Numbered from the stretch's first letter, positions 35,349 through 63,611 are shown. The stretch: DNA of 64,000 bases from Naegleria gruberi (GCA_000004985.1 GG738894.1); one strand, 5' to 3'. Notes: generated by a model from the letters alone, not told the origin. A program made the numbers and translations.

Positions 35349-35358
35349 ATTATAAAAA

Positions 35359-35832
35359 ATGCCTCCACGTAAAAGCACCCGATCTTCAGCATCATCGTCT
35401 TCATCTTCTACGGGGAACACTACCAAGAAACAAACCAAACTTATTCCGCCACCACAACCTCCATCATCAATGTTTTTACCACCTCCACAACCGAGACTCA
35501 TTCATCATCAAAATAATTCATCTCTTGGACCAACTCCATCACCTGTTCCGACACGTGGAGATCCATTATTAGCTTTGGCTGGTATTGCTGATAATGAACT
35601 GAGTGATTTAATGTATGAAGAAGTCACTGAAATGATTCTACAAAAAACAAAAGGAAAATCAAATGTGGAACAAGCAGCCTTTATGAGACAATTATTGGAA
35701 GGAACAGATTTTAAAAAAGATTTTGAGAGAAGGATGGAACGCAAATTTCCAGTGTTGGATAATATTTTGAATGGAAAAATTAAATTAGAAAAGAAGCAAG
35801 ACTTGGTGGAAATGGAAATTATTGATGATTAA
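35359..35832 (+). CDS. Small Ser/Pro-rich hypothetical protein (157 aa)
   Basis: ATG at 35359 (aaaaaATGcct). S/P-rich N-terminal half, charged helical C-terminal half. Confidence 0.4.
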   Translation: MPPRKSTRSSASSSSSSTGNTTKKQTKLIPPPQPPSSMFLPPPQPRLIHHQNNSSLGPTPSPVPTRGDPLLALAGIADNELSDLMYEEVTEMILQKTKGKSNVEQAAFMRQLLEGTDFKKDFERRMERKFPVLDNILNGKIKLEKKQDLVEMEIIDD

Positions 35833-43644: not shown

Positions 43645-44235
43645 NNNNNNNNNNNNNNNNNNNNNNNNNNNNNNNNNNNNNNNNNNNNNNNNNNNNNNNN
43701 NNNNNNNNNNNNNNNNNNNNNNNNNNNNNNNNNNNNNNNNNNNNNNNNNNNNNNNNNNNNNNNNNNNNNNNNNNNNNNNNNNNNNNNNNNNNNNNNNNNN
43801 NNNNNNNNNNNNNNNNNNNNNNNNNNNNNNNNNNNNNNNNNNNNNNNNNNNNNNNNNNNNNNNNNNNNNNNNNNNNNNNNNNNNNNNNNNNNNNNNNNNN
43901 NNNNNNNNNNNNNNNNNNNNNNNNNNNNNNNNNNNNNNNNNNNNNNNNNNNNNNNNNNNNNNNNNNNNNNNNNNNNNNNNNNNNNNNNNNNNNNNNNNNN
44001 NNNNNNNNNNNNNNNNNNNNNNNNNNNNNNNNNNNNNNNNNNNNNNNNNNNNNNNNNNNNNNNNNNNNNNNNNNNNNNNNNNNNNNNNNNNNNNNNNNNN
44101 NNNNNNNNNNNNNNNNNNNNNNNNNNNNNNNNNNNNNNNNNNNNNNNNNNNNNNNNNNNNNNNNNNNNNNNNNNNNNNNNNNNNNNNNNNNNNNNNNNNN
44201 NNNNNNNNNNNNNNNNNNNNNNNNNNNNNNNNNNN
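43645..44235. other. Assembly gap (591 N)
   Basis: Run of N. Confidence 0.99.
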
Positions 44236-44467: not shown

Positions 44468-44854
44468 TTAGTGAAACAACAAGATAATGAATAAACAGGT
44501 AGAAATGGATTGTTGTCCATCTATCATGTTGTTTTTATTGTTTAAATAATATATTGAAGGAAGAAGAAGCCTTAGGAGGCAAATAAACTCCTTTTTTTTG
44601 GTGTTGAATTTCTTTCTAACTACTGGTGATATTGGAATAGAAACCACACCAACATGCATACCAAACTCAATACTTGTAAACACTCTTTCTTCTTGCAATT
44701 TACGCAAGATACTTTTTATGCTATGGTTCCACTTCTCAGCAATACCATTAGCCTGGGGTCTTCCTGACGGGACATATTTCCATGAACATCCAGTAGCTTT
44801 AACAAAATCATCAATAATTTTGCTTTTGAACTCACCACCATTATCCGTGAGCAA
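44468..44854 (-). mobile_element. Remnant of a DDE (rve-type) integrase core, from an LTR-retrotransposon or other integrase-bearing element; 5'-truncated
   Basis: LTDNGGEFKSKIIDDFVKATGCSWKYVPSGRPQANGIAEKWNHSIKSIL matches the distal half of the retroviral-type integrase catalytic core (second D in DNGxEF; catalytic E in ANGxxE). An upstream in-frame stop at about 44862 and the neighbouring gene end at 44930 show it is a fragment. Confidence 0.6.
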
Positions 44855-44929: not shown

Positions 44930-46045
44930 TTAAGGAGCACTGCTTGTTGGTGGTGGGATATTTGTGAATAAATGAATTGAACTAACTAAGAGGGAGGTAA
45001 ACCACATGGCTGAATCAATATTGGTTCGATATTTGGAGCTCACTTCAATGTAGTAGGATCCCTCAAATAAAAGTTGCTGTATGAGTACACGTTCGACTTC
45101 TTGTCGTGTGACAGAGTTGGAATCTCTCAAATCTGATTTTAATCCAATAACGACAACTTCTGCATACTTTTTTCTGTTATCTCTGTAAGCTAATAATCCC
45201 TGAATGATAGAATCAAATGATGACCTATTTGTAATATCAAAAGTAATGAATATAGCACTCAGAGGATCAAATAATTGAGGACAATAGTAAAATATCTTAT
45301 CATTCCATTCCCAAATTTGACTCTTCACACGAAACATTTCACCAAAATTCAAAAACTTTGTTTTGAAAGAATGTTCCTCATATGGAGGATTATCACTAAA
45401 GGGCACTTCAGAGAATGAATTCAAGAAATTAGTTTTTCCAGTTTTTTGTTTTCCCAAAATCAAAGCCTTATGTGTAAAGAGATTCTTCTCATACTTTGGG
45501 TTCTTCTTCTTACTTATTCTTATTGATTGAACTGTTGGATCATTACATTCAAGGCCCAATATCTCACTTCTTTGATACTTGGCTTGAGAAATCAACGTGA
45601 AAGGAATATTAAATTTTGAAAAGTACAATTTCAATAACTGAGAATATTCCAAATAATCTCTACTATCCAATTTGAAAATTCCCTTCTCACTAGCATCATG
45701 TTTCCGCATCACTTGTTGAGCCAAATTAAATACAAAATTTCTCATCATGTAACGAAGACAATTTCTTCCCAGCCTCTTTCCGAACAAATCATCAAAAGAA
45801 TTAACCTGTTCATTCGCATCATCATGAATACAATCATAAAGCCAACACTCCTTCATGTGATGAGAAATTAACGGCCAAGCAAAAGTGTTCCTCCACTCCG
45901 AACAAACAAATCCAATGGAAAGTACAATTTCAATCATATCTAGGAATGAAAAACATTCCTTGATTATTTCCAATGGTAATTCACGATAGAGAGGAGAGAG
46001 AAAATTTGCTTTCGTGGATTCGGAACCTGTGCCATCATCCTCCAT
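44930..46045 (-). CDS. F-box protein fused to a Rab/Ras-like small GTPase domain with degenerate G3/G4 motifs (predicted pseudo-GTPase)
   Basis: ATG at complement(46045). F-box: LPLEIIKECFSFLDMIEIVLSIGFVCSEWRNTFAWPL. GTPase fold: KALILGKQKTGKTNF (G1, GxxxxGKT); KSQIWEWNDKIFYY in place of IWDTAGQE (DxxGQ lost); SAIFITFDITNRSSF (switch II region conserved); VVVIGLKSDL in place of GNKxDL; EVSSKY (G5 SAK-like). Confidence 0.65.
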   Translation of the reverse strand: MEDDGTGSESTKANFLSPLYRELPLEIIKECFSFLDMIEIVLSIGFVCSEWRNTFAWPLISHHMKECWLYDCIHDDANEQVNSFDDLFGKRLGRNCLRYMMRNFVFNLAQQVMRKHDASEKGIFKLDSRDYLEYSQLLKLYFSKFNIPFTLISQAKYQRSEILGLECNDPTVQSIRISKKKNPKYEKNLFTHKALILGKQKTGKTNFLNSFSEVPFSDNPPYEEHSFKTKFLNFGEMFRVKSQIWEWNDKIFYYCPQLFDPLSAIFITFDITNRSSFDSIIQGLLAYRDNRKKYAEVVVIGLKSDLRDSNSVTRQEVERVLIQQLLFEGSYYIEVSSKYRTNIDSAMWFTSLLVSSIHLFTNIPPPTSSAP

Positions 46046-46157: not shown

Positions 46158-49100
46158 TTAATGGTTGAGATTGGATTGTTTCAAAAGATCATTCTTTGAT
46201 TTGAGAATAGAGTCAAAGGATGAATATTCTGAGGTGAGAACTAATCTTGAATAGGTATCTTGTAAATTCATAACTACTTCATTCTTTAGAGTGTCGATAC
46301 ATTCATTGATTCTTGTATTGAGTGGTGATTTGCTTTTTTCATTGGAAAGTTCAACATCTTTCGAATCGAATTCTTTGACTATTGAAACCAAGTTGTTTCT
46401 TAAATGTGATGGAATGTTCACTTCATTCACACTTCCAACTTTGATATAGTTATCAAATAATTTGGAAAAGAATGAATTTAGCTCTTTGATTCTTCCATTT
46501 TGTAAAACATTTTCATTTTGTTTCAGAAAAGAGAAGAGGTGAATATTTTCTAATGAAAATTCCTTCTTACAAAACCATTCCATCAATGAATAGCCCTCCT
46601 TATTGTCCATAAATGAAACCAATTCAGAAAATTCTTCATTGGAATCTTTTGATTTTCTTATTTTGGAAATAAGCAACACTAATAAGGAATAACCTCCAAA
46701 CACAAAACAATAACTTGCTAAATATAAAATTTCAAACGCCATTGAAATAGAATCATTAGCAATAACTCTCTTTGGTGATGAAATTCCTGATAATCCAATA
46801 ATTTGATTACAAGCAAGGAAAATAAAACAAAAAACAAATAAAATCATTTCAACTCTAAAGTAAAGTGGTGAATCAACTCTTGAATACCAATTTGTGATGT
46901 GATTTGCTGGTAATTTGATAAAATTTGTCTTTTTCTTCTTATCCATATTTGTAATATTTGCAATAATTTCTTCCTTTTTGAGAAGAAACGATATTGTATA
47001 ATCCATAATAATTAACCCAATAATTACCAAACAAATTGATAGAATGATACAAGTAAATGAAATGGATACTATATAGGTATACTCTGTGCCAGTAATTACT
47101 TTCGTTCTCACTAAAATACACCACAAAGTCCAATACATTATGTTTACAATGAAACTGGAACCTAAAATCAATAACATTGATTTTGTGGAGAGGAAATGTT
47201 TCACAATCAAGAGCAATTTCTCACCTTCCTTACTATTTGACTTGGAGAAGACGGCCAATTTGTGATAGAAATATTTCAATAACTCAAATCTTGAAATTTG
47301 ATACAAATATGAAATAAAAGCCATTATCGTGATTGAATTTACAATAATTGTAATGATATTTGACAAGATATTGACTGCTAAATCACCATATTCCCATGAA
47401 ACTGTACTCGATTGTGAGCTATTTACTTCAACTTGTCCTGAAAGCAAAACACTCTTCTGAACAATCAATAACAATGCAGTTTGAATTAAAAGTGCAGTAA
47501 TTCCAATAAATGGAGTGACGAATCGACTCTTCACTGGTTGATAATTTCTGAAAACAATCAACAAGGTCAATAAAACACAGGAAATGATGAAGAAAATACT
47601 TCCATATACGATTTGAGTGACATAGACACTTTCCAACTCTTTTGCCTGTGCTGAGCTTGATCTTGTTGTGTTATATTCAACAAATGCAGAGAATAAGGTG
47701 GTGTGGTTGCATTGACATTGTACAATAGTTGAGCTTTCTGAAACAAGTTCACATCCATTGGATTCCCATGATTCTGTTGTTTCATTCCAATATTTACATG
47801 AAATGGAATAGTTTAAACTTGTATTCAAAGTAGCTGTAATTGACAATGAGAGGGTGAATGGTTTAGTCAAGTCTTTGATTTCTAATTGAGATCCTTCTTT
47901 GAAAATTGAAAATTCTGCAAATGATGAAAGGGAATTTGCCATTGAATAATTGTCTGGTCTGATATTTTTGGAATATTTGATTAAAGACATGCCTAATTGT
48001 TTCGAATAACCATTATAAGTATTCAACACGTTATCAACATCAACCTTAACATCTTGTAAATCAAAACTTCCAGAAAGAGTTTTTTCACTTTTGATAAAGT
48101 TTGATGTAACAATTTCCACATTATTAGAACGGAATAGCCTGTTAGAAATGGAATTCTTATTCGAATCAGAAAGGATAACTGGTGGCTCACCAATAATTGC
48201 CATTATTGAAACATGATTATAAATAGTGGACACATTGTAGTTTCCAGTGTTGAATAGATTAGTAGCTGTCGTAAGAATGTTTGATAAATCAGTTGAGGAA
48301 ACAACTTTTTCCTTGACAAAACCAAATGAATTGTACTGATTCTTATACGAATCTGTTAAATTGGCACAGAATGACTCAAATTTGAGCGCAACTTCTAAAC
48401 TTGCCTCCAAATTTGATTGAGCAATCTTTTTAAGTGTGTCAATTGTAGAAGATGGATTTTGAAGTGGAATTTCCAAAGACTTGACAATTTCTATTGCAAG
48501 AGAACTATCTGAAACTGTTTCAGTAAATACAGAATCGTAAGGAGCAATCATAGCAAGGATGGAATCTGATTTTAATCTTTCCAATAAATAGAGCTTGGAA
48601 TCAGGATAGGGATACATTGAAATATCTCCATTTACAACTTGATGGTATTCGAAACCTTGGGAGTCCTTCATGAACACAAGCATTGTAATGTTAGTAGTAA
48701 AGTAAGGAAGATAAATAGAATCAATAAGCCCAACATTATCATAATATTGAGTGACTCTAACGTTGGTCTTTTCTTTGTATTGGAAACCAAGTGCATAATT
48801 GAATGGATACATCTTCGAATTGGCTGCTATCCAAGGATAAACACTAAATCTAACAAGAGTTTTGAGCGAGTAAACTAAAGATGAATTTGTGCCAATAATT
48901 GAGAAAGTATTTCCACTTGGTAAAGGACCTGAATAAATTGGAATTGTCTCCTCTAAGCTAAATGAATTATTATTTCCCCTAAAACTTGAGCTAGTAAGTA
49001 CAAACTTGAAAGTTAAAGAATCATCATAAGTAGAAAATGATCCAGAAAATGATATTATTGGGTTAAATTTGATGGTATTGTTTCCATCAAACTCAACAGT

Positions 49101-50765
49101 GGTGATCCCACTACTTTCTAATAATGTAGAATTTCCACTCAACTTCAAGCTGTAACTAACTGTGAATGAACAATTTGTTTGGCAATCTATCACCTTGGAA
49201 CTATTGAAAATATTCTCAGCTCCCAAAACAAGACTATTCAAACTATGGTCCTTGTTCTTGATGAAATAAGAAGGGAACCCATATTTGGTAATACCTGGTT
49301 CTTGGATAGTGACTGTGAAATATAGAGTATTAGAAACTCTTGCTGGATATTGAGAGTGAGTTTTGAAACCTTGAACCGAAAACAAATAAGCTGTTCTCAC
49401 CTTCATCAAATCTTTGAAATATGTCAAGTTGAATAATGGTTGACTTGAAGAGCTAGGACAATCAATGCAAACCCAATTCACAGTAAAAGTTTGGAATTCA
49501 GAGGTGATTAAGGATTGATTATTCATATCAAAGGCATCAAGCTGTAAAATCAGATTATCGCCCTTCTCCACTTGAAAACTATTTGAGGGTAATGAGATTA
49601 GAATAGGATTAGTGTTGATAGAACAGTTGTTGCCATAGAAACCGCTGTTACAAGTACAGTTATCAGGTAGATTACATTGCCCATTGCCTGAGCAAACACT
49701 TGTCGAATTAAAGAGAACTCCATTACAGAAATAGTCTTGACAAGCTTTGCCGTAGAACCCTGTCTTACAATTACACGAATCTGGGCCAGAACAATTTCCA
49801 TTTCCAGAACAGACATTGGTACCATTACTATTAATACCAAAGCACTTGTAATATTGACAATTATTTCCATAATATCCCTCGGAACATGTGCAATTGTTTA
49901 AGGAAGAACAGTTTCCTCTTGCTAAGCATACTTGAGAATTATTATACGAAAGTCCAGAACAAGTATGAATACTACAATCATAGCCAAGAAAACCTTGCGA
50001 GCATGTGCAATTGTTTGGAGAAGAACAATTACCATTGCCTGAACAAACCATTGAATCATTCTTCAACTTGCCAAAACAATTAACAAAACTTTCACATTCA
50101 TTTCCATACCATCCATCATTACAAACACAATTATTATACGAAACACATTTACCATGATAGCTACAAGCATCAGTGGCATTCTTCTTGTAACAAATTGGTT
50201 GATCACAATTGTTTCCATTGTACATTACTGGACCAGTTTTACCAGCAGGGAAAATATCCTGTCTCCAACAAACTAATCCATAAGAATCATAAATAATCAA
50301 ATTCTTATCCGTGGTCATGATAAATCTGAAAGGCCCAACACCACCACTACATGATGACAAAATGGTTGAGTAGACATTTGTTGGATTATGAAGAGTAAAC
50401 GCTCCAGTATTATTATTCAATCTCATATTGTAAGAACCAGATCCCTGCCACGTGTTAGATGCCCAATCAGCAGCACCATTCAATTGGTAGGTTACCAAGT
50501 TACCATCAGTTTGAAGAACAACAAATTCATCGCTCTGTGGATTGTATATTGCCACACCATTTTGAATAGTTCCATTGATGGACGAGTGCATATAGTTTCC
50601 AGACGAAAGATCGAGACATTCACAAGAATTTTGACCTTTACAGATACCATTACCTCCACAAACTTGTAAATCGGTTGGGTGTTTGCCAAAACATGTAAAC
50701 GCTGTTGAGTAATCTACTCCAAGATGGAGCACAATTAATAACAACACAACAAGGTAAAATTTCAT
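46158..50765 (-). CDS. Adhesion-GPCR-like receptor: signal peptide, bulb-type (GNA-like) lectin domain, 6 EGF-like repeats, large ectodomain, GPS-like motif, 7 TM helices, C-terminal RGS domain
   Basis: ATG at complement(50765): MKFYLVVLLLIVLHLGV. B-lectin motif QxDxNxVxY in VVLQTDGNLVTYQLNG (second, degenerate: TTDKNLIIY). EGF-like repeats: CSGNGNCSSPNNCTCSQGFLGYDC, CLARGNCSSLNNCTCSEGYYGNNC, CSGNGNCSGPDSCNCKTGFYGKAC, CSGNGQCNLPDNCTCNSGFYGNNC and others. GPS-like motif CELVSESSTIVQCQCNHTTLFSAF (about 47681..47716) lies just before TM1 (IFFIISCVLLTLLIVF). Seven hydrophobic helices follow. RGS domain: FMDNKEGYSLMEWFCKKEFSLENIHLFSFLKQN (about 46300..46600). Confidence 0.75.
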   Translation of the reverse strand: MKFYLVVLLLIVLHLGVDYSTAFTCFGKHPTDLQVCGGNGICKGQNSCECLDLSSGNYMHSSINGTIQNGVAIYNPQSDEFVVLQTDGNLVTYQLNGAADWASNTWQGSGSYNMRLNNNTGAFTLHNPTNVYSTILSSCSGGVGPFRFIMTTDKNLIIYDSYGLVCWRQDIFPAGKTGPVMYNGNNCDQPICYKKNATDACSYHGKCVSYNNCVCNDGWYGNECESFVNCFGKLKNDSMVCSGNGNCSSPNNCTCSQGFLGYDCSIHTCSGLSYNNSQVCLARGNCSSLNNCTCSEGYYGNNCQYYKCFGINSNGTNVCSGNGNCSGPDSCNCKTGFYGKACQDYFCNGVLFNSTSVCSGNGQCNLPDNCTCNSGFYGNNCSINTNPILISLPSNSFQVEKGDNLILQLDAFDMNNQSLITSEFQTFTVNWVCIDCPSSSSQPLFNLTYFKDLMKVRTAYLFSVQGFKTHSQYPARVSNTLYFTVTIQEPGITKYGFPSYFIKNKDHSLNSLVLGAENIFNSSKVIDCQTNCSFTVSYSLKLSGNSTLLESSGITTVEFDGNNTIKFNPIISFSGSFSTYDDSLTFKFVLTSSSFRGNNNSFSLEETIPIYSGPLPSGNTFSIIGTNSSLVYSLKTLVRFSVYPWIAANSKMYPFNYALGFQYKEKTNVRVTQYYDNVGLIDSIYLPYFTTNITMLVFMKDSQGFEYHQVVNGDISMYPYPDSKLYLLERLKSDSILAMIAPYDSVFTETVSDSSLAIEIVKSLEIPLQNPSSTIDTLKKIAQSNLEASLEVALKFESFCANLTDSYKNQYNSFGFVKEKVVSSTDLSNILTTATNLFNTGNYNVSTIYNHVSIMAIIGEPPVILSDSNKNSISNRLFRSNNVEIVTSNFIKSEKTLSGSFDLQDVKVDVDNVLNTYNGYSKQLGMSLIKYSKNIRPDNYSMANSLSSFAEFSIFKEGSQLEIKDLTKPFTLSLSITATLNTSLNYSISCKYWNETTESWESNGCELVSESSTIVQCQCNHTTLFSAFVEYNTTRSSSAQAKELESVYVTQIVYGSIFFIISCVLLTLLIVFRNYQPVKSRFVTPFIGITALLIQTALLLIVQKSVLLSGQVEVNSSQSSTVSWEYGDLAVNILSNIITIIVNSITIMAFISYLYQISRFELLKYFYHKLAVFSKSNSKEGEKLLLIVKHFLSTKSMLLILGSSFIVNIMYWTLWCILVRTKVITGTEYTYIVSISFTCIILSICLVIIGLIIMDYTISFLLKKEEIIANITNMDKKKKTNFIKLPANHITNWYSRVDSPLYFRVEMILFVFCFIFLACNQIIGLSGISSPKRVIANDSISMAFEILYLASYCFVFGGYSLLVLLISKIRKSKDSNEEFSELVSFMDNKEGYSLMEWFCKKEFSLENIHLFSFLKQNENVLQNGRIKELNSFFSKLFDNYIKVGSVNEVNIPSHLRNNLVSIVKEFDSKDVELSNEKSKSPLNTRINECIDTLKNEVVMNLQDTYSRLVLTSEYSSFDSILKSKNDLLKQSNLNH

Positions 50766-51008
50766 ATTTTTTTTTGATACTGACAACCTGTCAAACAGAG
50801 CCAACTGTATGAGAGGTTACGCCATTGTATTATTATTCATTTGTATTAAATGACCTTTTTTGAGTTTAACTTACTTAAAAATCAATTTACACCAAGTGTC
50901 ATTCAATATGTAATTGGTTGAATACTTGTTTTAAATATCAAACAAAGCTGTTTGGATGAAGCATTTGTAATGTGGAAAGGAAGAAAATCATTATAACATA
51001 GAAACGAA

Positions 51009-52926
51009 TTAATCATCATACATATCAGAATATCTGTATCCAATTTCACTGTTTCCTTTCCATAGAGTGCAACACTGATTCCACAAATTAGTACAATCAA
51101 GTACAGGGAATAATCTATGTTGATAACAGCAAACATATTGGAATGCAGTACCTATCCAGTTAGGAAGGCCTATTCTTTTAGTCTCATGCATGATATCTGA
51201 TTCAGGGTTAGATCTGTAACAGCAACAACTAGTGGCACACCAACATGCAAGAATACCACATCCATTACAACAACCACAAGCCCTACTAAAGCAACAATGT
51301 TTTGTATAGTTCTTATCTAAAAATCCACACCTAGTAATCTGCTGCATTTTGTAATCCATTTCTTCTTTTAAATTTTCGATAAGGATTGTTGGAAAAGTTG
51401 GAAATATGATTTTGTGATGAGAGACCTTAGCTGATTCTCTCTTAAAGTATATACTCTCAAAGTTGATAGATATTGAGTTGTCAATTTGAGAGGAAGCAAA
51501 TATGTTATTCTTAATTTCAATTCCATGTTTGTTAAAGAGAGCTTGTCTGATAGAATCAGATAAATTTAGTTTTGAGTAGTATATATGTTTGTAGAATTGT
51601 TTTAAAAATTCCAATCGTTGCTTATCATTCATTGTTTCAACAGATGCCAACGTTAGAAATTGAGGAAGAATAGTTCCATTAACCTTAGTATCTGTGAGAA
51701 GTTGCGTATTGGGAGGGAATTTCACTCTACCACTAATTAATCTATCTCTGTAATTTTTGATAATGTTTTCTCTGACAATCATAAAATTTCTTTGCTCAGC
51801 TGGCGTTAATGATTTAATATGTCTGAGATTTTCCTTTTCAAATATTTCTTTCAAATCTATCATAGAAGATTCCATTCGTGGTATGATTTTGTACCTAAAT
51901 AACAAGTACAAGAGTATTTTACATATATATAAAGATTGACCACTTTCAAAGTTGGTTTCCATACTAAATATTTTTCGGTAGTCATGTGTGATGGATCCAT
52001 GCTTGAATTCAATTTCATCTCTCTTAATATTCCTCATATATCTTGGGCGAAACACCTTATTCGAAATAAACAGAGAACTTTCTCTGCACAAGCGAGAGTG
52101 GAAGCCAATTGGGTATGCAGTCGCAAAGTGAATGTGTAAAATCATTCTTCCATATAATCTAAATGGATTCACTCTCTTATTCACAAGAAAATGTTTACTA
52201 CACCAATGAGTGTATAAATCATGGAGTGTGACATGTTTCTTCAGAATATCTTGTTCATTCTCGTTATTTCCAAATAGATGATATAATTTACATTGTTTTC
52301 CATTTTTTGGAACGTTTGATTTAGAAAGAATATCGCTCACATTTACTGCCTTAGTTTTATCTACAATATCCTCCAACGTGTCCAATAATAGAGAGCTGTT
52401 AGCCCCTGACAATTCAACTTCAACCTCAAACTCACTATCAGATAATTGATTCATACTCTTTCCAAATATCTTTCTCATTGCCTTCATAAATGGAGGCAAA
52501 ATCTCTTCAGGTTTCACATCCATGTCCACCATACTATTCACTCTCAATCGGTTCGGAATGAATATCTGAAAGTACAATCGAGGTAAATAAACATTTCCAA
52601 TTCGTTTCAATAAATTTTCATTTCTAATAGTTTCCTTCCCTGATGTGTTAATATTATTTAATCCAACGTCAGAATTCTCTAATTTCCCATCCATCTCCTG
52701 ATCATGCTGATAACAGTAACAACAACCATCAAATAAATTATAATAATATTTGCACGTATATTTCAAGGCTTGCAATTCGTAGGCACCTCTATTCGGACAG
52801 TAGGAAAGAATTGTCTCGATGGAATCATGATCCAAATTAATTAATTGTGATTCAGCCGTGATAGGATCGGTTGCAATATTTGTACCCTCTTCTCCAATGA
52901 TTATTGGATGATGTTGGGCCAACATT
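51009..52926 (-). CDS. Hypothetical protein (about 639 aa) with Cys-rich C-terminus
   Basis: First ATG at complement(52926): MLAQHHPIII. The track ORF begins 9 nt upstream at a non-ATG codon. The C-terminal Cys cluster CCFSRACGCCNGCGILACWCATSCCCY suggests palmitoylation or metal binding. No catalytic motif recognised. Confidence 0.45.
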
Positions 52927-53115
52927 TTGGTCGGCAATCAATGAGCTAATTTTTTACATGATATTTTAATTTCGCATCCAGAACAATGCAACAAATTTGA
53001 TAGCAAAACTGAAGGAAGTGTTAGGTGCATGTGTAAACGTCGAAATGTTTAGTGAATGGAGAACATAGTACCAATTTCACCCTTGCATCTTTTGAGAAAG
53101 TACCTTAATCTTAGT

Positions 53116-53529: not shown

Positions 53530-54843
53530 ATGACTCAAAAGAAAACTACACAACAACCAGCAGCAAAGAAAGGAGGAAAAAAGGGTGGAGATGATGATAT
53601 GGCCTTCCTGATGGAAATGCAAAAGCAAAACGAAAAGGTTATCGAAAAACAAAAGAAAGCCGAAGAAAAGAAGAAGAATGCTACACCAGCAGCATCAGAT
53701 TCTACTCCGCAAGCTAACGTTAAGAAGACTTATCCAAGCGAACAAACAAAACCAGAACCAACAGTGCCAATTAAATACTTGTTCAAAGACAACAAATATC
53801 CACAAGGTGAAATTATGGAATATGCTCAAGATTTTAACAAATTTAGAACATCATCAAAGGAACATCAACAAAAGGACGAAATGTTTGACCACGTCGTTCA
53901 AGAAGCTAGACAAGCTGCTGAAGTACACAGAACTGCTAGACAATGGTTCCAAGGATATGTTAAACCAGGTATGAGAGTTATTGATGCTGCTGAAGCATTG
54001 GAAAATAAGGCCAGAGAATTAATTGAAGCTAACGGTATTAATGCTGGTATTGCTTTCCCATTGGGTTGTTCAATGAATAATTGTGCTGCTCACTATACTC
54101 CAAATGGTGGAGATGAAACAATTATTACTGCTAATGATATTATCAAATTCGATCTCGGATTACATATTAATGGACGTATTATTGATTGTGCTTGGACTAT
54201 GTATTGGGATGATAAATTCAAGCCATTGGCTATGGCTGCAAAGGAAGCTACAAACATGGGTATTAAAACTGCTGGTATTGATGTCAGAATGAGTGATATT
54301 GGTGCTTCTATTCAAGAAGTTATGGAATCCTATGAAGTGGAATTAAACGGAAAGACTTACCCAGTTAAATGTGTTGCCAACTTGAATGGTCACTCAATTG
54401 AAAGATATAAGATCCATGCTGGTAAGACTGTACCAATTGTAAAGAATAATGATAACACAAAGATGGAAGAAAATGAATTTTATGCTATTGAAACTTTCGG
54501 TTCAACTGGTAGAGGTCATGTTGATCATGAAGGTGTCTGTTCACACTACATGAGAGATTTTGATAAAAAGATTCCATCAGGAGATTTAAAGACACAAAAA
54601 GCTCGTGACTTACTCAAGACTATTGAAACTAACTTTAGTACACTTGCTTTCTGTAGAAGATATTTGGATAGACTCGGAGAAGATAAATACATGGTAGCTC
54701 TCAAGAGTTTAGTCAATGCAGGTGTTGTCAATGAATATCCACCATTGTGTGACGTTAAGGGATCTTACACTTCTCAATATGAACACACCATTGTTCTCAG
54801 ACCAACATGCAAAGAAGTCATCAGTAGAGGAACTGATTATTAA
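53530..54843 (+). CDS. MAP2: Methionine aminopeptidase 2 (MetAP2, peptidase M24A)
   Basis: Lys-rich N-terminus (KKGGKKGGDDD...KKAEEKKKN). Catalytic domain blocks: AEVHRTARQWFQGYVKPGMRVIDAAEALENKAREL; GIAFPLGCSMNNCAAHYTPNGGD; DIIKFDLGLHINGRIIDCAWT; FGSTGRGHVDHEG...HYM; NEYPPLCDVKGSYTSQYEHTIVLRPTCKEVISRG. Confidence 0.9.
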   Translation: MTQKKTTQQPAAKKGGKKGGDDDMAFLMEMQKQNEKVIEKQKKAEEKKKNATPAASDSTPQANVKKTYPSEQTKPEPTVPIKYLFKDNKYPQGEIMEYAQDFNKFRTSSKEHQQKDEMFDHVVQEARQAAEVHRTARQWFQGYVKPGMRVIDAAEALENKARELIEANGINAGIAFPLGCSMNNCAAHYTPNGGDETIITANDIIKFDLGLHINGRIIDCAWTMYWDDKFKPLAMAAKEATNMGIKTAGIDVRMSDIGASIQEVMESYEVELNGKTYPVKCVANLNGHSIERYKIHAGKTVPIVKNNDNTKMEENEFYAIETFGSTGRGHVDHEGVCSHYMRDFDKKIPSGDLKTQKARDLLKTIETNFSTLAFCRRYLDRLGEDKYMVALKSLVNAGVVNEYPPLCDVKGSYTSQYEHTIVLRPTCKEVISRGTDY

Positions 54844-58747: not shown

Positions 58748-60322
58748 ATGGGACAGTTTTCATCCAGTATTGCACCTCCACCAAGCAGAATATGTAGCAC
58801 ACCATCGGTAATTGACATTAAAAAACTTCTCCAAAAACCTCTCCACAAATTAACAAATCTCGAACTAGTTGTTTTGTGTAAACATTACAAATTCGAAAGT
58901 GAGAAAGTAAAACAAGCTCTGGAGAAGAATGCCAAATTTAATGGAGCAGATTATGATAAACTTTGTAAAATGAAAACAAAGGAAGAGATTGAAGTGGAGA
59001 AGGAAAGATTGATCGATGTTGTGAATAAGTATGTAAATGATGAAGGAGAATCCAAGTTCTTTGTTTATCAAGTTGTGATTGCAAAGTTTGAGGATGAGAG
59101 AAAGTTATTCTTCATGAAAGAAGACAAAAGTGTTTCATCAAATAGCGAATCTGAAAGTGAAGTGGATTCCAATAATCCAACCACTACAAGTACTTTCCTA
59201 AAGTTATGTAATAATAGTACTAGGCCATATGTTAACTCTGAATCTTCTGGTGTAGAGAATGAAAATCAAGAATATGATGTTCAAATTCCAATAGAAAGCT
59301 GGAGATTATCACAAGCCGAATTTAAAGGAGTTGAGCTAGCCAAGAAAAAGATTAGAGCATACCTTAAAGAATTCAACACTACACCAGAGAAGCTTGGATA
59401 TAGTGAAAGTTTAGATTTGGAAGCTCAAAGATATGTCTGTGAAGACAGATTCATGCATTTTCACTTTGTTCGTCCTACAATGAAGAAAAATTCAAGAATT
59501 GTTTCCAATATTCCAGCAGTTGTGAGCGTCAAGTTGTTGGTTTCATCTTTAAGAAAACACGAATTAACCAAGAAGGCAATGGCTACATTCGCAGACATTC
59601 TTAATGTAAATAATTATGGAGTTGTTCACACAGGAATCTTAATTGGAGAATGGAAAATTGAATGGTATGATAATTCATTGGTGAGAGTTGAGTGCGATTC
59701 TGACCAGAAACTTGATGCTAATAATACCATTGCAGCCATTGATATTGGAGAAATTGCTGGAGCTGACAATGTCAAGAAGGCATTCGAATTGATTACAAAA
59801 ATTTCATGCAATTACAATGCAACCAAGAATTATTCATTATTAGGGGCTAATTGCCAACATTTCGTTTCAGATTTATTAGAGGCATTGAATTTGACACTTC
59901 CAGTGAGTGAATCTTTCAAAATTTATTTTGACAAATTGAAAAGAGGAGAAACTGACAGAACTTTCTTTGTGAATGAAAATTTGGCAACATTATTTAAAAC
60001 ATGCAACATTACAAACCCTTATATTGGTTTGAAGAACATTACATTCGAGAATAGAAAATCGTTGGATGAATTTTGTCATTTTCTTGAACATATCAAATAT
60101 TTTGACATTGAGGCAGGTCAAAGTGATTTTTGGCTTTTGAAGGCATTTGATAGGTCATTTGTTTTGGTTGGGGAGGATGAAATTTGTCTTACTTTTGATT
60201 CTACAGGAGTCAAAGAGAATGGATTCTTCACAACTAATGGAGGAAGAGATCAAGATTCCATCACTCATATTAAGTACAGTGTTAAAGATGTTGATTTCAG
60301 TGATTGTGTATTAAAGAGGTAA
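58748..60322 (+). CDS. N-myristoylated hypothetical protein (524 aa)
   Basis: MGQFSSS (MGxxxS). Conserved N-terminal module KPLHKLTNLELVVLCKHYKFESEKV is shared with the truncated paralog at 60684. Confidence 0.55.
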   Translation: MGQFSSSIAPPPSRICSTPSVIDIKKLLQKPLHKLTNLELVVLCKHYKFESEKVKQALEKNAKFNGADYDKLCKMKTKEEIEVEKERLIDVVNKYVNDEGESKFFVYQVVIAKFEDERKLFFMKEDKSVSSNSESESEVDSNNPTTTSTFLKLCNNSTRPYVNSESSGVENENQEYDVQIPIESWRLSQAEFKGVELAKKKIRAYLKEFNTTPEKLGYSESLDLEAQRYVCEDRFMHFHFVRPTMKKNSRIVSNIPAVVSVKLLVSSLRKHELTKKAMATFADILNVNNYGVVHTGILIGEWKIEWYDNSLVRVECDSDQKLDANNTIAAIDIGEIAGADNVKKAFELITKISCNYNATKNYSLLGANCQHFVSDLLEALNLTLPVSESFKIYFDKLKRGETDRTFFVNENLATLFKTCNITNPYIGLKNITFENRKSLDEFCHFLEHIKYFDIEAGQSDFWLLKAFDRSFVLVGEDEICLTFDSTGVKENGFFTTNGGRDQDSITHIKYSVKDVDFSDCVLKR

Positions 60323-60454
60323 TAAATGATTGTTAGTGCCACTCTTTCAACAATTGCTCAATTACTTTGGTGATAAAAGAATAATTGAGCAATTGTTGTT
60401 AAGAATTTGTTATAGATAATAATATTTATAATTCAGATATTAAGGTGAATGAAT

Positions 60455-60571
60455 GGCTACGGCCATATCACGATGAATGCACCTCATCCCAACGATTTGA
60501 GAAGTTAAGCATCGTCGAGCCACATCAGTACTGAGGTTGGAGACAACTTGGGAACCTGTGGTGCTGTAGTC
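60455..60571 (+). rRNA. 5S ribosomal RNA gene
   Basis: GGCTACGGCCATATCACGATGAATGCACCTCATCCCAACGATTTGAGAAGTTAAGCATCGTCGAGCCACATCAGTACTGAGGTTGGAGACAACTTGGGAACCTGTGGTGCTGTAGTC aligns along its whole length to eukaryotic 5S: GyCTACGGCCATAyCAC...GAAGyTAAGC...AGTACT.GG.TGGGAGAC...TGGGAA...GGTGCTGTAG. Helix I ends are complementary. Followed by TTTTT (60572-60576). Confidence 0.85.
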
Positions 60572-60576
60572 TTTTT
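60572..60576 (+). terminator. Pol III T-run terminator of 5S gene
   Basis: TTTTT immediately after the 5S 3' end. Confidence 0.6.
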
Positions 60577-60683
60577 ATTCCATTTTCCTTGACCGTGGTT
60601 TCATTAGAATGCTCAAAAGGTCCGATCACGTTTAACGTGAAAAAGACAGCAGATGATCAAAATACATGATACAATCTAAAAAA

Positions 60684-60895
60684 ATGGGCAACACGTCAAG
60701 TATTATTAGATTCTCTGAAGAAATCAGTCCACCCAGTGATGAGATTGAAGAGGCAGAGGCAAAACCTCTTCGAGAATGTAGCAATAGGGACTTGTTTTGT
60801 TTATGTATTCATTACAATTTCAAGAACGATACTGTCATAAATGCTGTAACAATGAACAATGATTTTTATGGAAAGTTATTCGAAAGGTTGGTANN
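60684..60895 (+). CDS. 5' end of a paralog of the 58748 gene (N-myristoylated), truncated at the assembly gap/retroelement
   Basis: MGNTSSIIRFSEE...KPLRECSNRDLFCLCIHYNFKNDTVINAVTMNNDFYGKL aligns ungapped to KPLHKLTNLELVVLCKHYKFESEKVKQALEKNAKFNGADYDKL of the upstream gene (16/43 identical, same spacing of L, C, HY, F). Confidence 0.45.
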
Positions 60896-61503
60896 NNNNN
60901 NNNNNNNNNNNNNNNNNNNNNNNNNNNNNNNNNNNNNNNNNNNNNNNNNNNNNNNNNNNNNNNNNNNNNNNNNNNNNNNNNNNNNNNNNNNNNNNNNNNN
61001 NNNNNNNNNNNNNNNNNNNNNNNNNNNNNNNNNNNNNNNNNNNNNNNNNNNNNNNNNNNNNNNNNNNNNNNNNNNNNNNNNNNNNNNNNNNNNNNNNNNN
61101 NNNNNNNNNNNNNNNNNNNNNNNNNNNNNNNNNNNNNNNNNNNNNNNNNNNNNNNNNNNNNNNNNNNNNNNNNNNNNNNNNNNNNNNNNNNNNNNNNNNN
61201 NNNNNNNNNNNNNNNNNNNNNNNNNNNNNNNNNNNNNNNNNNNNNNNNNNNNNNNNNNNNNNNNNNNNNNNNNNNNNNNNNNNNNNNNNNNNNNNNNNNN
61301 NNNNNNNNNNNNNNNNNNNNNNNNNNNNNNNNNNNNNNNNNNNNNNNNNNNNNNNNNNNNNNNNNNNNNNNNNNNNNNNNNNNNNNNNNNNNNNNNNNNN
61401 NNNNNNNNNNNNNNNNNNNNNNNNNNNNNNNNNNNNNNNNNNNNNNNNNNNNNNNNNNNNNNNNNNNNNNNNNNNNNNNNNNNNNNNNNNNNNNNNNNNN
61501 NNN
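60896..61503. other. Assembly gap (608 N)
   Basis: Run of N. Confidence 0.99.
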
Positions 61504-63611
61504 TTACGAAAAGTAAATGGAGGAATAGATTCGAAACATTCAAAAATGGAAACTTTGCAAAAAGTTTCAAAGTTCATTCGGCAAGATTTTTGGGCAACCA
61601 AAATAGATTTAAAGAAAGGTTATTTTCAAATTCCAATCAAAGAAGAAGATCAGAAGCTATTAGGCTTCTCATTTCAAGGAAAGAAATACAAGTTCCAATG
61701 TCTTCCATTTGGCTTAAACTCGGCACCAAGGTACTTCACAAAAATCATGAAAGAATTAATGAAGAAATGGAGAGAGAAAGGGCTGATCGTATTCATATAC
61801 ATCGACGACATTTTAATTTTGGGATCCAATATAGTAGAAACAAAGACAGCAACAGAACAAGTGTTAAAAGATTTAGAATTCTTGGGTTGGCTGGTTCAGT
61901 TAGAAAAATCCCAACTAATCCCCTCACAACAAGTATGCTTTTTAGGGATAGATTTCAATTTGGAAAAAGGAACAATGCTGATTCCTCACGAAAAGAAAGA
62001 AGTTGCACTCAACTTTATTCAAGATTTTCTCCAAGCTGGAAAATTTCGAAAATTCGTTCGAATCAAACTGGTAGCTCAATTTATAGGAAAACTGGAATTC
62101 GCCTCATTAGCAGAACAATACATAATGCCTCTGTTAGACAGATTACGAAAGCAAATGAATCAAAGGGTTTCAGTAGTAGGATGGTCAGGTTTTATGCTCA
62201 TCAACAGAGGCCCCATGAAGGACCTAATGAGATTAAAGTCCATCATTTCAAACTCAAAAGGTTCTCTCCTAGATCTAAATCAACCTTTCCCAATTATAGT
62301 CAATTCAGATGCTTCTCCTCAAGGATATGGCGTCCACTCCTCAAACACTGTTATCATAGGAAGATTTCACACCAACGATCATATCAATTCGAAAGAAATG
62401 ATGGCAATTCTTCAATTCTTCATAGAAGCAAAATCACAAAAGCTCTTCCCAAGAGGAGCCTATTTCGAGATAAGGGGGGACAATTCAACTGCCCTCTCAT
62501 ACATAAGAAAAGGATATGGAACTTTCGAACACCTCGCTCAAATAGCAAGAAAAATTTGGAAAATTCTAATAGAATGTGGCTGGAGAATTGCAAAAGTAAT
62601 TTACATTCCCTCAGAGAAAAATTCAATCGCAGACAAATTAAGCCGTTTAAGCGATTGGAAATCATCACCAGAATTGATAAGTATGGTAGAAAAAGAATTC
62701 GGAAACCACACCATAGACAGATTTGCAACATCAGAGTCAGCAACAACGATCCAATTCAACTCTTGGTTAGAAAACGATGCGTTTCAAGAACTTTGGGAAC
62801 AAAATTCAATCAATTATTGTGTTCCTCCAATAGGTCTAATCCCACAAGCTCTATTTCACTTGATCCGATCAAAGGCCATAGGAACATTCGTAGTTCCTTA
62901 TTGGCCAACAGCTTACTGGTTCCCGATCTTGCTAAAGATATCTTTAGAACAGAGAAGTGTTCCGCTCCAATGGCTTATAACAGAGCATTACAACGAACTG
63001 CACAAACTATCAGACAATCTTTCGTTCATGGCAGTCAAAGTGAATGGAATGCTCTACTTTCAATGAGATGTCAGGCTTTGTCTACTGCTCTTGCAGAATC
63101 CACGGTCAAAAAGTATTCCTCAACTTATTCAGAATTTTCTTATTTCTGTCTACTCCATAATTTAGACAAATCAGATTTTAGAGCCCCGGAATTATTCGCT
63201 TGCTATCTTGCAGTTCACAAAAAGCTCTACAGATTGAATAATTTGAAACCTACGTTGGATTTCTATTCAAATTTGGAAGGATGGTCCGTAAATTATTCTA
63301 ATCAATTCTCTAGAATCAAACAAGGTTTGAATAAGTTTTATTCACGAGCCGATATTGTTAAACGTAAGAGAAGTGGAATCTCTGCTCTCAATGTCAAGCA
63401 ATTCATTGATAGGATCTCTATTAAAGACTCTTATCTTCACATGTTGTCTTGTGCCATACTTTCCGTTGGCATTAGATTATTGGCAAGACCTGGTCAACTG
63501 GCTAATTTATCATGGTCTTGTGTTAAACTTGATACTCCTTTTATCGGTTGGGTTACTTTTGATCTTTCTGGTCACAAAACAGACCAATATCTGACAGATG
63601 AAGATGGCTAG
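61504..63611 (+). mobile_element. DIRS-like (tyrosine-recombinase) retrotransposon, 5' end in gap, 3'-truncated: RT-RNaseH-(MT-like) ORF 61504..63066 plus overlapping ORF ending in the YR N-terminal region (about 63058..63611)
   Basis: RT motifs: LPFGLNSAPRYFTKIM; KGLIVFIYIDDILILG (YXDD). RNase H: IVNSDASPQGYGV ... SIADKLSR. Downstream DIRS-type domain: NYCVPPIGLIPQ...VVPYWPTAYWF. A second frame stays open across the whole RT region and ends with a YR-like box I (CAILSVGIRLLARPGQLANLSWSCV) before stopping at 63611. Long overlapping ORFs are the DIRS1-type arrangement. No integrase or protease motifs. Confidence 0.7.

What the first reader, a model, noticed from the sequence alone, without database searches (positions are those of the whole stretch)
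46158..50765. Giant receptor combining lectin+EGF ectodomain, GPS motif, 7TM and a C-terminal RGS domain
One 1.5-kaa ORF strings together six elements. First, a signal peptide. Second, a GNA/bulb-type mannose-lectin motif (LQTDGNLVTY, exactly QxDxNxVxY). Third, six tenascin-type EGF repeats. Fourth, a GPS-like autoproteolysis motif (CQCNHTTLFSAF) directly before the first of seven TM helices. Fifth, the seven TM helices. Sixth, an RGS domain (EWFCKKEFSLENIHLF). A 7TM-RGS fusion means the receptor would carry its own GAP for G-alpha. Putting that behind an adhesion-GPCR-like GAIN/GPS ectodomain with a carbohydrate-binding head is an architecture I cannot place in any described receptor class.
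Basis: partly seen in the sequence, partly recalled or inferred. Interest (0 to 1): 0.7.

Follow-up and report, generated by a model that had tools for sequence, protein, structure and literature searches.

The report
Naegleria lectin-EGF-GAIN 7TM-RGS receptor
This is a real, intact gene of the amoeba Naegleria gruberi for a giant surface receptor that carries its own G-protein "off switch". The gene is already in public databases, and the same receptor design was described in 2022 for its relative Naegleria fowleri, so it is an ordinary member of a known family.

Summary
Window 46158-50765 (minus strand) is one uninterrupted 1535-aa ORF. It encodes a signal peptide, a bulb-type lectin domain, EGF repeats (five complete, plus one apparently split by the lectin), a GPS motif inside a predicted GAIN fold, seven TM helices and a C-terminal RGS domain.

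The novelty claim does not hold:
- The window is Naegleria gruberi, and the exact protein is public as XP_002672999.1 / D2VST9, an "uncharacterized protein".
- Bosch, Jeck & Siderovski (JBC 2022) described 28 "7TM RGS" proteins in N. fowleri. Several have GPS motifs, EGF repeats and lectin domains, and their RGS domains act as GAPs on Gα subunits, including self-activating ones.

Details found here:
- A REJ-like region lies before the GAIN domain, as in polycystin-1.
- The cleavage-site triad is H-T-T in 26 of 30 family motifs, not the usual H-L-T.
- The 7TM domain matches no known GPCR class by sequence, so this is not a class-B adhesion GPCR.

Most likely function: a ligand- or adhesion-regulated GAP for Gα. 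Interest is low.

The parts
46158..50765 (-). Complete intronless CDS, 1535 aa plus stop. Identical to N. gruberi XP_002672999.1 / EFC40255.1 / D2VST9 (NAEGRDRAFT_72058).
50700..50765 (-). Signal-peptide-like hydrophobic N-terminus (aa 1-22).
   Evidence: Hydropathy. No dedicated signal-peptide predictor was run.
50616..50693 (-). N-terminal part of a split EGF-like unit (Cys25, 36, 42, 48, 50). The closing Cys187 lies after the lectin domain.
   Evidence: Cysteine pattern. The arrangement is conserved in homologues. The split reading is an inference.
50226..50603 (-). Bulb-type (GNA / B_lectin) lectin domain, aa ~55-180. One intact QxDxNxVxY motif (QTDGNLVTY, aa 85-93) and one degenerate motif (TTDKNLIIY, aa 151-159).
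   Evidence: Family profile against PDB lectins, E = 4e-24. 4 of 8 family members hit Pfam B_lectin. The query alone is below threshold. Motifs.
49623..50192 (-). Five complete tenascin/teneurin-type EGF repeats (aa 192-381).
   Evidence: Pfam EGF_2, EGF_Teneurin and EGF_TEN. Regular 6-Cys pattern.
48606..49613 (-). REJ-like region (aa ~385-720).
   Evidence: The query alone gives no Pfam hit. It aligns to the same region of paralogues at E = 1e-9 to 2e-16. That region hits Pfam REJ at 35-54 bits against a cut-off of 25. This is homology by transitivity.
48192..48596 (-). GAIN subdomain A, a helical bundle (aa ~724-858).
   Evidence: AF2 model, pLDDT ~71-89. Foldseek matches to GAIN domains.
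47673..48179 (-). GAIN subdomain B, a beta-sandwich (aa ~863-1031) that includes the GPS motif (Pfam aa 989-1026).
   Evidence: Invariant in 20 aligned family members: C990, W1000, G1004, C1005, C1017, C1019, H1021, T1022, T1023, F1025.
47697..47705 (-). Putative autoproteolysis site H1021-T1022 | T1023. It lies in the turn between the last two predicted beta-strands, followed by the Stachel-like strand TLFSAFVEY.
   Evidence: DSSP strands at aa 1014-1019 and 1024-1031. Triad counts are HTT in 26, HLT in 3 and HAT in 1 of 30 family GPS motifs. Cleavage itself was not tested.
46662..47630 (-). Seven-transmembrane domain (aa ~1046-1368) with a GPCR fold but no assignable GPCR class.
46206..46616 (-). 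RGS domain (aa ~1384-1520) with conserved Gα-contact motifs EFSLEN, EVNIPS and DTYSR.
   Evidence: Pfam RGS 26.8-30.1 bits. Alignment to RGS3, RGS16, RGS4 and RGS8. Foldseek TM 0.7-0.79 to RGS8, RGS16 and RGS4. Family invariants E1402, E1406, N1407, N1450, D1503, T1504, R1507.

Best explanation
This gene is a member of the Naegleria "7TM RGS" receptor family. The protein is a type-I-oriented surface protein with a ~1020-aa glycosylated ectodomain. That ectodomain holds a mannose-type bulb lectin inserted into an EGF unit, five EGF repeats, a REJ-like region and a GAIN domain. A GPCR-fold seven-helix bundle and a cytoplasmic RGS domain follow.

The most likely mechanism is a receptor-regulated GTPase-activating protein (GAP), not a classical G-protein activator. 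At rest, the membrane-anchored RGS domain accelerates GTP hydrolysis on Gα subunits, some of which load GTP spontaneously in Naegleria, and so keeps them off. A glycan or adhesive ligand then engages the lectin/EGF head. This may be helped by GAIN autoproteolysis at H1021-T1022|T1023 and exposure of the following TLFSAF strand. The resulting change in the 7TM bundle or in receptor localisation alters the RGS domain's access to Gα, which changes the steady-state level of Gα-GTP.

What is shown: the domain composition, topology and predicted folds (computed here), and the GAP activity of related N. fowleri RGS domains (published). What is inferred: GAP activity of this protein, cleavage at the GPS, the ligand, and the direction of regulation.

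My confidence that it belongs to this family is about 0.95. My confidence in the receptor-regulated GAP mechanism is about 0.5.
For: - Identity: the neighbouring MetAP2 ORF is 100% identical to an N. gruberi protein. The exact 1535-aa product is XP_002672999.1 on the same 499,907-bp scaffold.
- Family: full-length homologues exist in N. fowleri, N. gruberi, N. lovaniensis and Willaertia. The 7TM region is 37-48% identical (E to 7e-94) and the RGS region 30-38% identical (E to 8e-32).
- Topology: a signal peptide plus 7 TM segments puts the RGS domain in the cytoplasm. There are 31 N-x-S/T sequons in the ectodomain against 3 elsewhere.
- RGS: the Gα-contact motifs are invariant across 20 family members and align with RGS3, RGS16 and RGS4.
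- Published function: N. fowleri has 28 7TM RGS proteins, several with GPS, EGF and lectin domains. Their RGS domains are GAPs for Gα2, 3, 5 and 7, of which Gα5 and Gα7 are self-activating, and they use the canonical interface (PMC9283941).
- The 7TM family co-occurs with RGS even behind other ectodomains, such as α/β-hydrolase-7TM-RGS proteins.
Against: - There are no experimental data for this protein or for any full-length family member. Bosch et al. state that it is undetermined whether these proteins act as receptors and how extracellular cues alter GAP activity.
- The cleavage triad is H-T-T rather than the canonical H-L-S/T, so autoproteolysis is uncertain.
- The RGS Pfam score is only a few bits above the cut-off (26.8 against 23.9). 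Single-sequence PDB matches are marginal (E = 0.004).
- The lectin has one intact sugar-binding motif and fails Pfam on its own.
- A GPCR-fold bundle could equally act as a GEF.
Confidence: 0.6

Rival explanations
1. It is a true G-protein-activating receptor, an adhesion-type GPCR. The GAIN tethered peptide activates the 7TM bundle as a GEF, and the cis-linked RGS domain only sharpens or terminates the signal it starts (kinetic scaffolding).
For: - The GAIN fold sits directly before TM1, with invariant His and Thr at the cleavage position and a Stachel-like strand T-x-F-x-x-[FL].
- Some Naegleria Gα subunits are not self-activating and presumably need a GEF, yet only one cAR-like candidate GPCR was found in N. 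fowleri.
Against: - The same 7TM family is found with RGS behind unrelated ectodomains. This pattern fits a dedicated 7TM-RGS module like plant AtRGS1, which acts as a GAP.
- No GEF activity has been shown for any 7TM-RGS protein (my knowledge).
Confidence: 0.25
2. It is mainly an adhesion or recognition molecule for prey, substrate or cell contact. The GAIN domain is an uncleaved structural spacer, and the RGS domain is a scaffold without GAP activity.
For: - The ectodomain is very large and rich in lectin, EGF and REJ modules typical of adhesion proteins.
- The non-canonical H-T-T triad may not cleave.
- Some RGS domains are known to have lost GAP activity (statement in PMC3971589).
Against: - The canonical Gα-contact residues (EFSxEN, the EVN Asn, DxxxR) are invariant in the family.
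- RGS domains of three related N. fowleri 7TM RGS proteins showed GAP activity on Gα subunits.
- The H, T, T and F positions of the GPS are invariant in 20 aligned members, which suggests more than a structural role.
Confidence: 0.12
3. The fusion is an artefact. Either two adjacent genes (receptor and RGS) are read as one ORF, or the ORF is an unexpressed pseudogene.
For: No transcript data could be examined here.
Against: - It is a single uninterrupted 4.6-kb ORF. Only ~16 residues separate TM7 (ends ~1368) from the start of the RGS match (1384).
- The same 7TM-RGS continuity is seen in more than 15 homologues from four genera.
- All family-invariant residues are retained.
- The public gene model is identical.
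- Most related N. fowleri signalling genes are reported as transcribed.
Confidence: 0.03

Closest known systems
Naegleria fowleri 7TM RGS proteins (Nf 7TM RGS2, 3 and 4; Bosch, Jeck & Siderovski 2022, PMC9283941)
   Same: The overall architecture is the same: lectin / carbohydrate-binding domain, EGF repeats, GPS motif, 7TM and a C-terminal RGS. The best full-length database hit is an N. fowleri protein, P0001: 30% identity over 98% of the query overall, 40% over the 7TM region.
   Different: This is an N. gruberi paralogue with a shorter EGF array (1535 aa against 2000-2600 aa). No biochemistry exists for it. The REJ-like region, the GAIN fold and the H-T-T triad are not mentioned in that paper.
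Arabidopsis AtRGS1 and other plant/protist 7TM-RGS proteins
   Same: Seven TM helices are followed by a cytoplasmic RGS domain. The proposed logic is also shared: a membrane receptor-GAP acting on self-activating Gα.
   Different: AtRGS1 has essentially no ectodomain (my knowledge). Here there is a ~1020-aa lectin/EGF/REJ/GAIN ectodomain. Sequence relatedness of the two 7TM domains was not tested.
Adhesion GPCRs (class B2: latrophilin, BAI, CD97, CELSR, GPR56)
   Same: Both have a large modular adhesive ectodomain, a GAIN domain with a GPS motif ~25 residues before TM1, and a Stachel-like last beta-strand.
   Different: The 7TM domain is not 7tm_2. The cleavage triad is H-T-T. A C-terminal RGS domain is absent from metazoan adhesion GPCRs (my knowledge).
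Polycystin-1 / PKDREJ / sea-urchin REJ proteins
   Same: A REJ-type region sits directly N-terminal to a GAIN/GPS module. A lectin-type domain in the ectodomain is also a feature of PC1, which has a C-type lectin (my knowledge).
   Different: There is no PLAT domain, no 11-TM or TRP-like channel part, and the lectin is bulb-type rather than C-type. The REJ assignment for this protein is by transitive homology only.
Fungal class VI GPCRs (7TM with a cytoplasmic RGS, e.g. Aspergillus GprK)
   Same: A 7TM-RGS fusion (my knowledge; the distribution in chytrids, filastereans and ichthyosporeans is noted in PMC3971589).
   Different: No GAIN/GPS, EGF or lectin ectodomain. Homology of the 7TM domains was not tested.

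Membership tests
Naegleria 7TM RGS family (Bosch et al. 2022) | Seven TM helices followed by a C-terminal RGS domain in one polypeptide | tested here: met
   Hydropathy gives 7 TM segments at aa 1049-1368. Pfam RGS at aa 1384-1495. The AF2 model shows 7 long helices followed by an RGS helical domain.
Naegleria 7TM RGS family (Bosch et al. 2022) | Sequence homology to N. fowleri members across the 7TM and RGS regions | tested here: met
   P0001 (N. fowleri): 7TM 40% identity, E = 4e-69; RGS 30% identity, E = 2e-27.
Naegleria 7TM RGS family (Bosch et al. 2022) | GAP activity of the RGS domain on Naegleria Gα | not testable with these tools
   Only conservation of the contact motifs could be shown. 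Published GAP data are for N. fowleri proteins.
GAIN domain | Helical subdomain A plus beta-sandwich subdomain B, ending in a GPS motif just before TM1 | tested here: met
   AF2 shows helices at aa 724-858 and strands at aa 863-1031. Foldseek matches BAI3 4dlo at E = 2.6e-9, and also BAI2, CD97, CELSR1, latrophilin, GPR126, GPR110 and GPR56. Pfam GPS 36-39 bits.
GAIN domain | Canonical autoproteolysis triad H-L/I/M | S/T | tested here: inconclusive
   His and the +1 Thr are present and invariant, but the -1 residue is Thr (H-T|T). Counts are HTT 26, HLT 3 and HAT 1 of 30 family motifs. Cleavage was not assayed.
Adhesion GPCR (class B2) | Secretin-like 7tm_2 transmembrane domain | tested here: not met
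Plant AtRGS1-type 7TM-RGS | 7TM plus C-terminal RGS with a minimal extracellular N-terminus | tested here: not met
   The fusion is present, but the N-terminus is a ~1020-aa multidomain ectodomain. Homology to the AtRGS1 7TM domain was not tested because afdb50 was unavailable.
Polycystin-1 / PKDREJ | REJ domain immediately N-terminal to GAIN/GPS | tested here: inconclusive
   The query region aa 385-740 gives no REJ hit alone. The homologous region of P0001, P0002, P0003, P0007, P0008 and P0022 hits REJ at 35-54 bits, cut-off 25. The query aligns to several of those regions (P0001, P0002, P0003, P0007, P0022) at E = 1e-9 to 2e-16.
Polycystin-1 / PKDREJ | PLAT domain after TM1 and an 11-TM / TRP-like channel region | tested here: not met
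   Exactly 7 TM segments, no PLAT or PKD_channel hit.
Bulb-type (GNA) lectin, Pfam B_lectin | Sequence membership and QxDxNxVxY mannose-binding motifs | tested here: inconclusive
   The query alone is below threshold. The family profile hits 1dlp, garlic and snowdrop lectins and pyocin L1 at E = 4e-24 to 1e-12. Four of 8 members hit B_lectin. One intact motif is at aa 85-93, one is degenerate and one is lost. No structure model was made for this domain.
RGS domain (canonical, R4-like) | Pfam membership, RGS fold and Gα-contact residues | tested here: met
   PF00615 at 26.8-30.1 bits against 23.9. Foldseek matches RGS16, RGS8 and RGS4 at TM 0.7-0.79. EFSLEN, EVNIPS and DTYSR align to EFSEEN, EVNLDS and DSYPR of RGS3 and RGS16 and are invariant in the family.

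The most novel reading that the evidence does not exclude
The GAIN domain is functional. It cleaves at the lineage-specific H-T|T site, and its tethered TLFSAF strand controls a 7TM bundle that is not class B and whose output is an intramolecular GAP. That would be adhesion-type or mechanical sensing wired to switch G proteins off (or to release them) in a discobid protist. It would also imply that the REJ-GAIN module was coupled to several unrelated membrane cores (the polycystin 11-TM, class-B 7TM and this 7TM-RGS core) very early in eukaryote evolution, or repeatedly.
Probability: 0.3. Interest if true: 0.55.

Novelty: already known. Interest (0 to 1): 0.2.

Why it matters
As a discovery it matters little. 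The gene model has been public under the N. gruberi genome project's locus tag (NAEGRDRAFT_72058), and the lectin/EGF/GPS/7TM/RGS design was published for N. fowleri in 2022.

As biology the family remains interesting. It joins the autoproteolytic GAIN module of adhesion GPCRs and polycystins to a receptor-GAP of the plant AtRGS1 type, in an organism with self-activating Gα subunits. No full-length member has been tested for cleavage, ligand or regulation.

N. gruberi is non-pathogenic and culturable. A compact member such as this one (1535 aa, one intact mannose-type motif) would therefore be a convenient test case. It could show whether a tethered-agonist mechanism can regulate a GAP rather than a GEF, and it could model possible drug targets in N. 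fowleri.

Tried and rejected
- Unannotated gene (my own hypothesis, rejected). After one search showed no hit above 53% identity, I thought the gene was missing from the N. gruberi protein set. The exact look-up refuted this. The protein is XP_002672999.1, hidden because its 90% cluster is represented by a 196-aa fragment.
- Second homologue search with aa 700-1535. It returned a single hit, because the scored candidate list (capped at 8000) held almost no true relatives, so it was uninformative.
- Exact-product contig look-ups found nothing, even for P0253, which one search shows is a public N. gruberi protein. They say nothing about annotation.
- Pfam on the query alone for B_lectin, REJ, 7tm_2 and Dicty_CAR was negative. 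The lectin and REJ regions were recovered only through homologues. The 7TM class was not recovered at all.
- The family 7TM profile against PDB sequences gave only noise, with a ryanodine receptor as best hit at E = 0.67.
- Foldseek against afdb50 was intended to compare the 7TM domain with AtRGS1, but the library was not available.
- The Anantharaman et al. 2011 (Gene 475:63) paper on 7TM-RGS diversity could not be read.
- The polycystin-like reading was rejected as family membership: there is no PLAT domain and no 11-TM region.
- The adhesion-GPCR reading was rejected as family membership: there is no 7tm_2 domain.

Full report
**1. What is in the sequence**

The finding corresponds to a single ORF on the minus strand. 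ORF listing gives 46158..50804 from a TTG. The first ATG is at 50765 and yields 1535 aa beginning MKFYLVVLLLIVLHLGVDYSTA.

Kyte-Doolittle hydropathy shows an N-terminal signal-like segment. It also shows exactly seven hydrophobic segments, at about aa 1049-1072, 1083-1107, 1129-1153, 1196-1219, 1230-1260, 1303-1327 and 1343-1368. With a cleaved signal peptide, the first ~1020 residues are outside the cell and the C-terminal ~165 residues are cytoplasmic. In agreement, 31 of 34 N-x-S/T sequons lie before TM1.

**2. Domain tests**

*Pfam on the whole protein.* All of the following are above the curated cut-offs.

| Pfam family | Score | Cut-off | Position |
|---|---|---|---|
| EGF_2 | 62 bits, 6 stretches | 22.1 | aa ~190-390 |
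| EGF_Teneurin | 47.5 bits | 24.3 | – |
| GPS (PF01825) | 36.1 bits | 22.5 | aa 989-1026 |
| RGS (PF00615) | 26.8 bits | 23.9 | aa 1384-1495 |

On sub-fragments the GPS score is 38.8 bits and the RGS score 30.1 bits. No B_lectin, REJ, 7tm_2 or Dicty_CAR match appears, even at E <= 10.

*Lectin.*
- The query N-terminus (aa 55-190) is 53% identical to N. gruberi P0037, and 25-33% identical to the N-termini of P0002, P0003 (named "B-lectin domain-containing protein") and P0001.
- A profile of the query plus seven such homologues (A1) hits solved bulb-type lectins: Scilla lectin 1dlp (E = 4e-24), putidacin, pyocin L1, garlic lectin and snowdrop agglutinin.
- Four of the eight sequences hit Pfam B_lectin on their own. 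The query does not.
- The query keeps one exact QxDxNxVxY motif (QTDGNLVTY). A second is degenerate (TTDKNLIIY) and the third is lost.
- The cysteine pattern suggests that the lectin is inserted between Cys5 and Cys6 of an N-terminal EGF-like unit (C25, C36, C42, C48, C50 ... C187). Five regular EGF repeats follow at aa 192-381. The split reading is my inference.

*REJ-like region.*
- Residues ~385-720 have no Pfam hit of their own.
- They align to the corresponding region of paralogues at E = 2e-16 to 7e-9.
- That region in P0001, P0002, P0003, P0007, P0008 and P0022 hits Pfam REJ at 35-54 bits (cut-off 25), directly N-terminal to the GAIN region.
- The REJ-like assignment for this protein is therefore by transitive homology only.

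*GAIN/GPS.*
- An AlphaFold2 model of aa 690-1535, built from a 20-sequence family alignment, has mean pLDDT 77.
- It shows a helical bundle (aa ~724-858), a beta-sandwich (aa ~863-1031), seven long helices and a C-terminal helical domain.
- Foldseek against the PDB puts adhesion-GPCR GAIN domains on top: BAI3 4dlo (E = 2.6e-9), BAI2, inactive CD97 (651 aligned columns spanning GAIN and 7TM), CELSR1, latrophilin 1 and 3, GPR126, GPR110, GPR56 and GPR97.
- In the family alignment C990, W1000, G1004, C1005, C1017, C1019, H1021, T1022, T1023 and F1025 are invariant.
- The triad H1021-T1022-T1023 sits in the turn between the last two predicted strands, aa 1014-1019 and 1024-1031. That is where GAIN domains cleave.
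- Across 30 GPS motifs in the retrieved family the triad is HTT in 26, HLT in 3 and HAT in 1. The catalytic His and the nucleophilic Thr are kept, but the usual Leu at -1 is replaced. Cleavage is plausible but unproven.

*7TM domain.*
- A family profile of the 7TM region (A3) finds no GPCR among PDB sequences. The best hit is at E = 0.67 and is noise.
- None of 16 members hits any Pfam 7TM family.
- A 7TM-only AF2 model is confident, with pLDDT 82.9 and pTM 0.81.
- Foldseek returns only GPCRs, and weakly: Ste2, GIPR, the calcitonin receptor and GABA-B, all at E >= 0.02.
- It is therefore a genuine GPCR-fold bundle that cannot be assigned to a class.
- An exhaustive HMM search of 1.84 billion cluster representatives finds only 141 relatives, 89 of them at E <= 1e-30. 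Most are 1000-2600 aa long with the 7TM domain near the C-terminus.
- Among the weaker hits sampled, most still carry an RGS domain behind a different N-terminal domain, an alpha/beta hydrolase. The 7TM domain and the RGS domain therefore travel together.

*RGS.*
- Besides Pfam, the C-terminal domain of the model matches RGS16, RGS8, RGS4, RGS1 and RGS2 with target-normalised TM-scores of 0.64-0.79.
- EFSLEN, EVNIPS and DTYSR align with EFSEEN, EVNLDS/EVNID and DSYPR of RGS3 and RGS16.
- E1402, E1406, N1407, N1450, D1503, T1504 and R1507 are invariant in 20 family members.
- From my knowledge of RGS4-Giα1 (1agr), these correspond to the Gα switch-contacting residues, including the Asn128 equivalent.

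**3. Origin and public status**

The adjacent methionine aminopeptidase 2 ORF (53530-54843) is 100% identical to an N. gruberi protein on a 499,907-bp scaffold.

An exact-sequence look-up shows that the 1535-aa product is itself public. It is EFC40255.1 / XP_002672999.1 / UniProt D2VST9, named "uncharacterized protein NAEGRDRAFT_72058", on the same scaffold and with the same gene model. It was invisible in the homology search because its 90% cluster is represented by a 196-aa fragment. My interim idea that the gene was unannotated is therefore wrong.

**4. Literature**

Bosch, Jeck & Siderovski (J Biol Chem 2022, PMC9283941) report the following for N. fowleri:
- It expresses 28 seven-transmembrane proteins with a C-terminal RGS domain.
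- "A number" of them harbour GPS motifs reminiscent of adhesion GPCRs.
- Several, including Nf 7TM RGS2, 3 and 4, have EGF-like repeats and lectin domains.
- Their recombinant RGS domains are selective GAPs for Nf Gα2, 3, 5 and 7, of which Gα5 and Gα7 are self-activating. They act through the canonical interface, because the switch-I G-to-S mutation abolishes activity.
- The authors state that it is unknown whether these proteins are receptors and how cues alter GAP activity.
- They do not mention REJ, the GAIN fold or the N. gruberi members.

De Mendoza et al. 2014 (PMC3971589) note 229 RGS proteins in N. gruberi and 7TM-RGS architectures in many bikonts, chytrids, filastereans and ichthyosporeans. 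No held paper combines "Naegleria" with "GAIN domain".

**5. Interpretation**

The protein is an ordinary, compact member of the Naegleria 7TM-RGS family. The best-supported mechanism is a receptor-regulated GAP, by analogy with AtRGS1 and on the basis of the N. fowleri biochemistry. The anchored RGS domain restrains Gα-GTP. Engagement of the lectin/EGF head changes that restraint, possibly through GAIN cleavage and the TLFSAF strand.

The rival readings are:
- A GEF-type adhesion GPCR with a built-in terminator.
- A mainly adhesive protein with a scaffold RGS domain.
- An artefactual fusion. This last one is essentially excluded by the continuous ORF, the ~16-residue TM7-RGS linker and the same continuity in more than 15 homologues.

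The protein works partly like an adhesion GPCR and partly like polycystin-1 in its ectodomain. It fails the membership test for both: it has no 7tm_2 domain, no PLAT domain and no 11-TM region.

**6. Verdict**

The finding is already known, and interest is low (0.2).

The remaining open biology concerns the whole family rather than this window:
- Is the H-T|T GAIN site cleaved?
- Does a tethered peptide regulate a GAP?
- What is the lectin's ligand?
- How is this orphan 7TM domain related to other 7TM-RGS proteins?

Noticed in passing
window 3984-5576 (-): A second RGS protein in the window. It is 530 aa, with a strong Pfam RGS hit at aa 397-516 (49.6 bits), no TM segment, and an N-terminal MGNTNS that looks like a myristoylation signal. 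It is public as XP_002672986.1. This fits the very large RGS repertoire of N. gruberi (229 reported).
   Followed up: partly
window 44930-46045 (-): The gene 113 bp downstream of the receptor encodes an F-box domain (aa 22-58) fused to a Ras/Rab-like GTPase domain (aa 193-347). It is annotated publicly as "rab family member" (XP_002672998.1). F-box plus small GTPase is an unusual combination.
   Followed up: partly
window 43645-44235 and 44468-44854 (-): A 591-base run of N (assembly gap) lies 2 kb downstream of the receptor gene. Next to it, a 128-aa ORF has weak, sub-threshold matches to integrase core domains (rve_3 E = 0.012, rve E = 0.079). It may be a transposon remnant at the gap.
   Followed up: partly
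window 6354-9650 (-): A 1098-aa ORF with a eukaryotic RNA-dependent RNA polymerase domain (Pfam RdRP, 202 bits). A 50-base N run at 9214-9263 lies inside it.
   Followed up: no
window 33432-35501 (-) and 1037-2191 (-): Two proteins made of DUF4116 repeats: 12 repeats (520 bits) and 4 repeats (137 bits).
   Followed up: no
window 60666-63611 (+), N run 60894-61503: This is the lowest-GC stretch of the window (0.24 at 60001-62000). The overlapping long ORFs there run through a 610-base N gap, so they are artefacts of the gap and not genes as listed.
   Followed up: no
proteins P0208, P0210, P0211, P0216, P0220, P0226 (metagenome contigs, not in the window): Distant relatives of the same 7TM family. 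Most carry an N-terminal alpha/beta-hydrolase domain instead of lectin/EGF/GAIN, followed by the 7TM domain and, in most of them, an RGS domain (~740-860 aa). Some are auto-named "pimeloyl-ACP methyl ester carboxylesterase". I did not find a hydrolase-7TM-RGS architecture described in the papers I read.
   Followed up: partly
protein cluster of the query (P0373 / P0374): The 1535-aa N. gruberi protein is filed in a 90%-identity cluster whose representative is a 196-aa fragment from an ENA/Logan assembly. Homology searches that show only representatives therefore miss it. This nearly led to a false conclusion that the gene is unannotated.
   Followed up: yes
window 51009-52937 (-): The upstream neighbour is a 642-aa ORF with no Pfam match at E <= 1. 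Its C-terminus is strikingly Cys-rich (CCFSRACGCCNGCGILACWCATSCCCY...). Function unknown.
   Followed up: no
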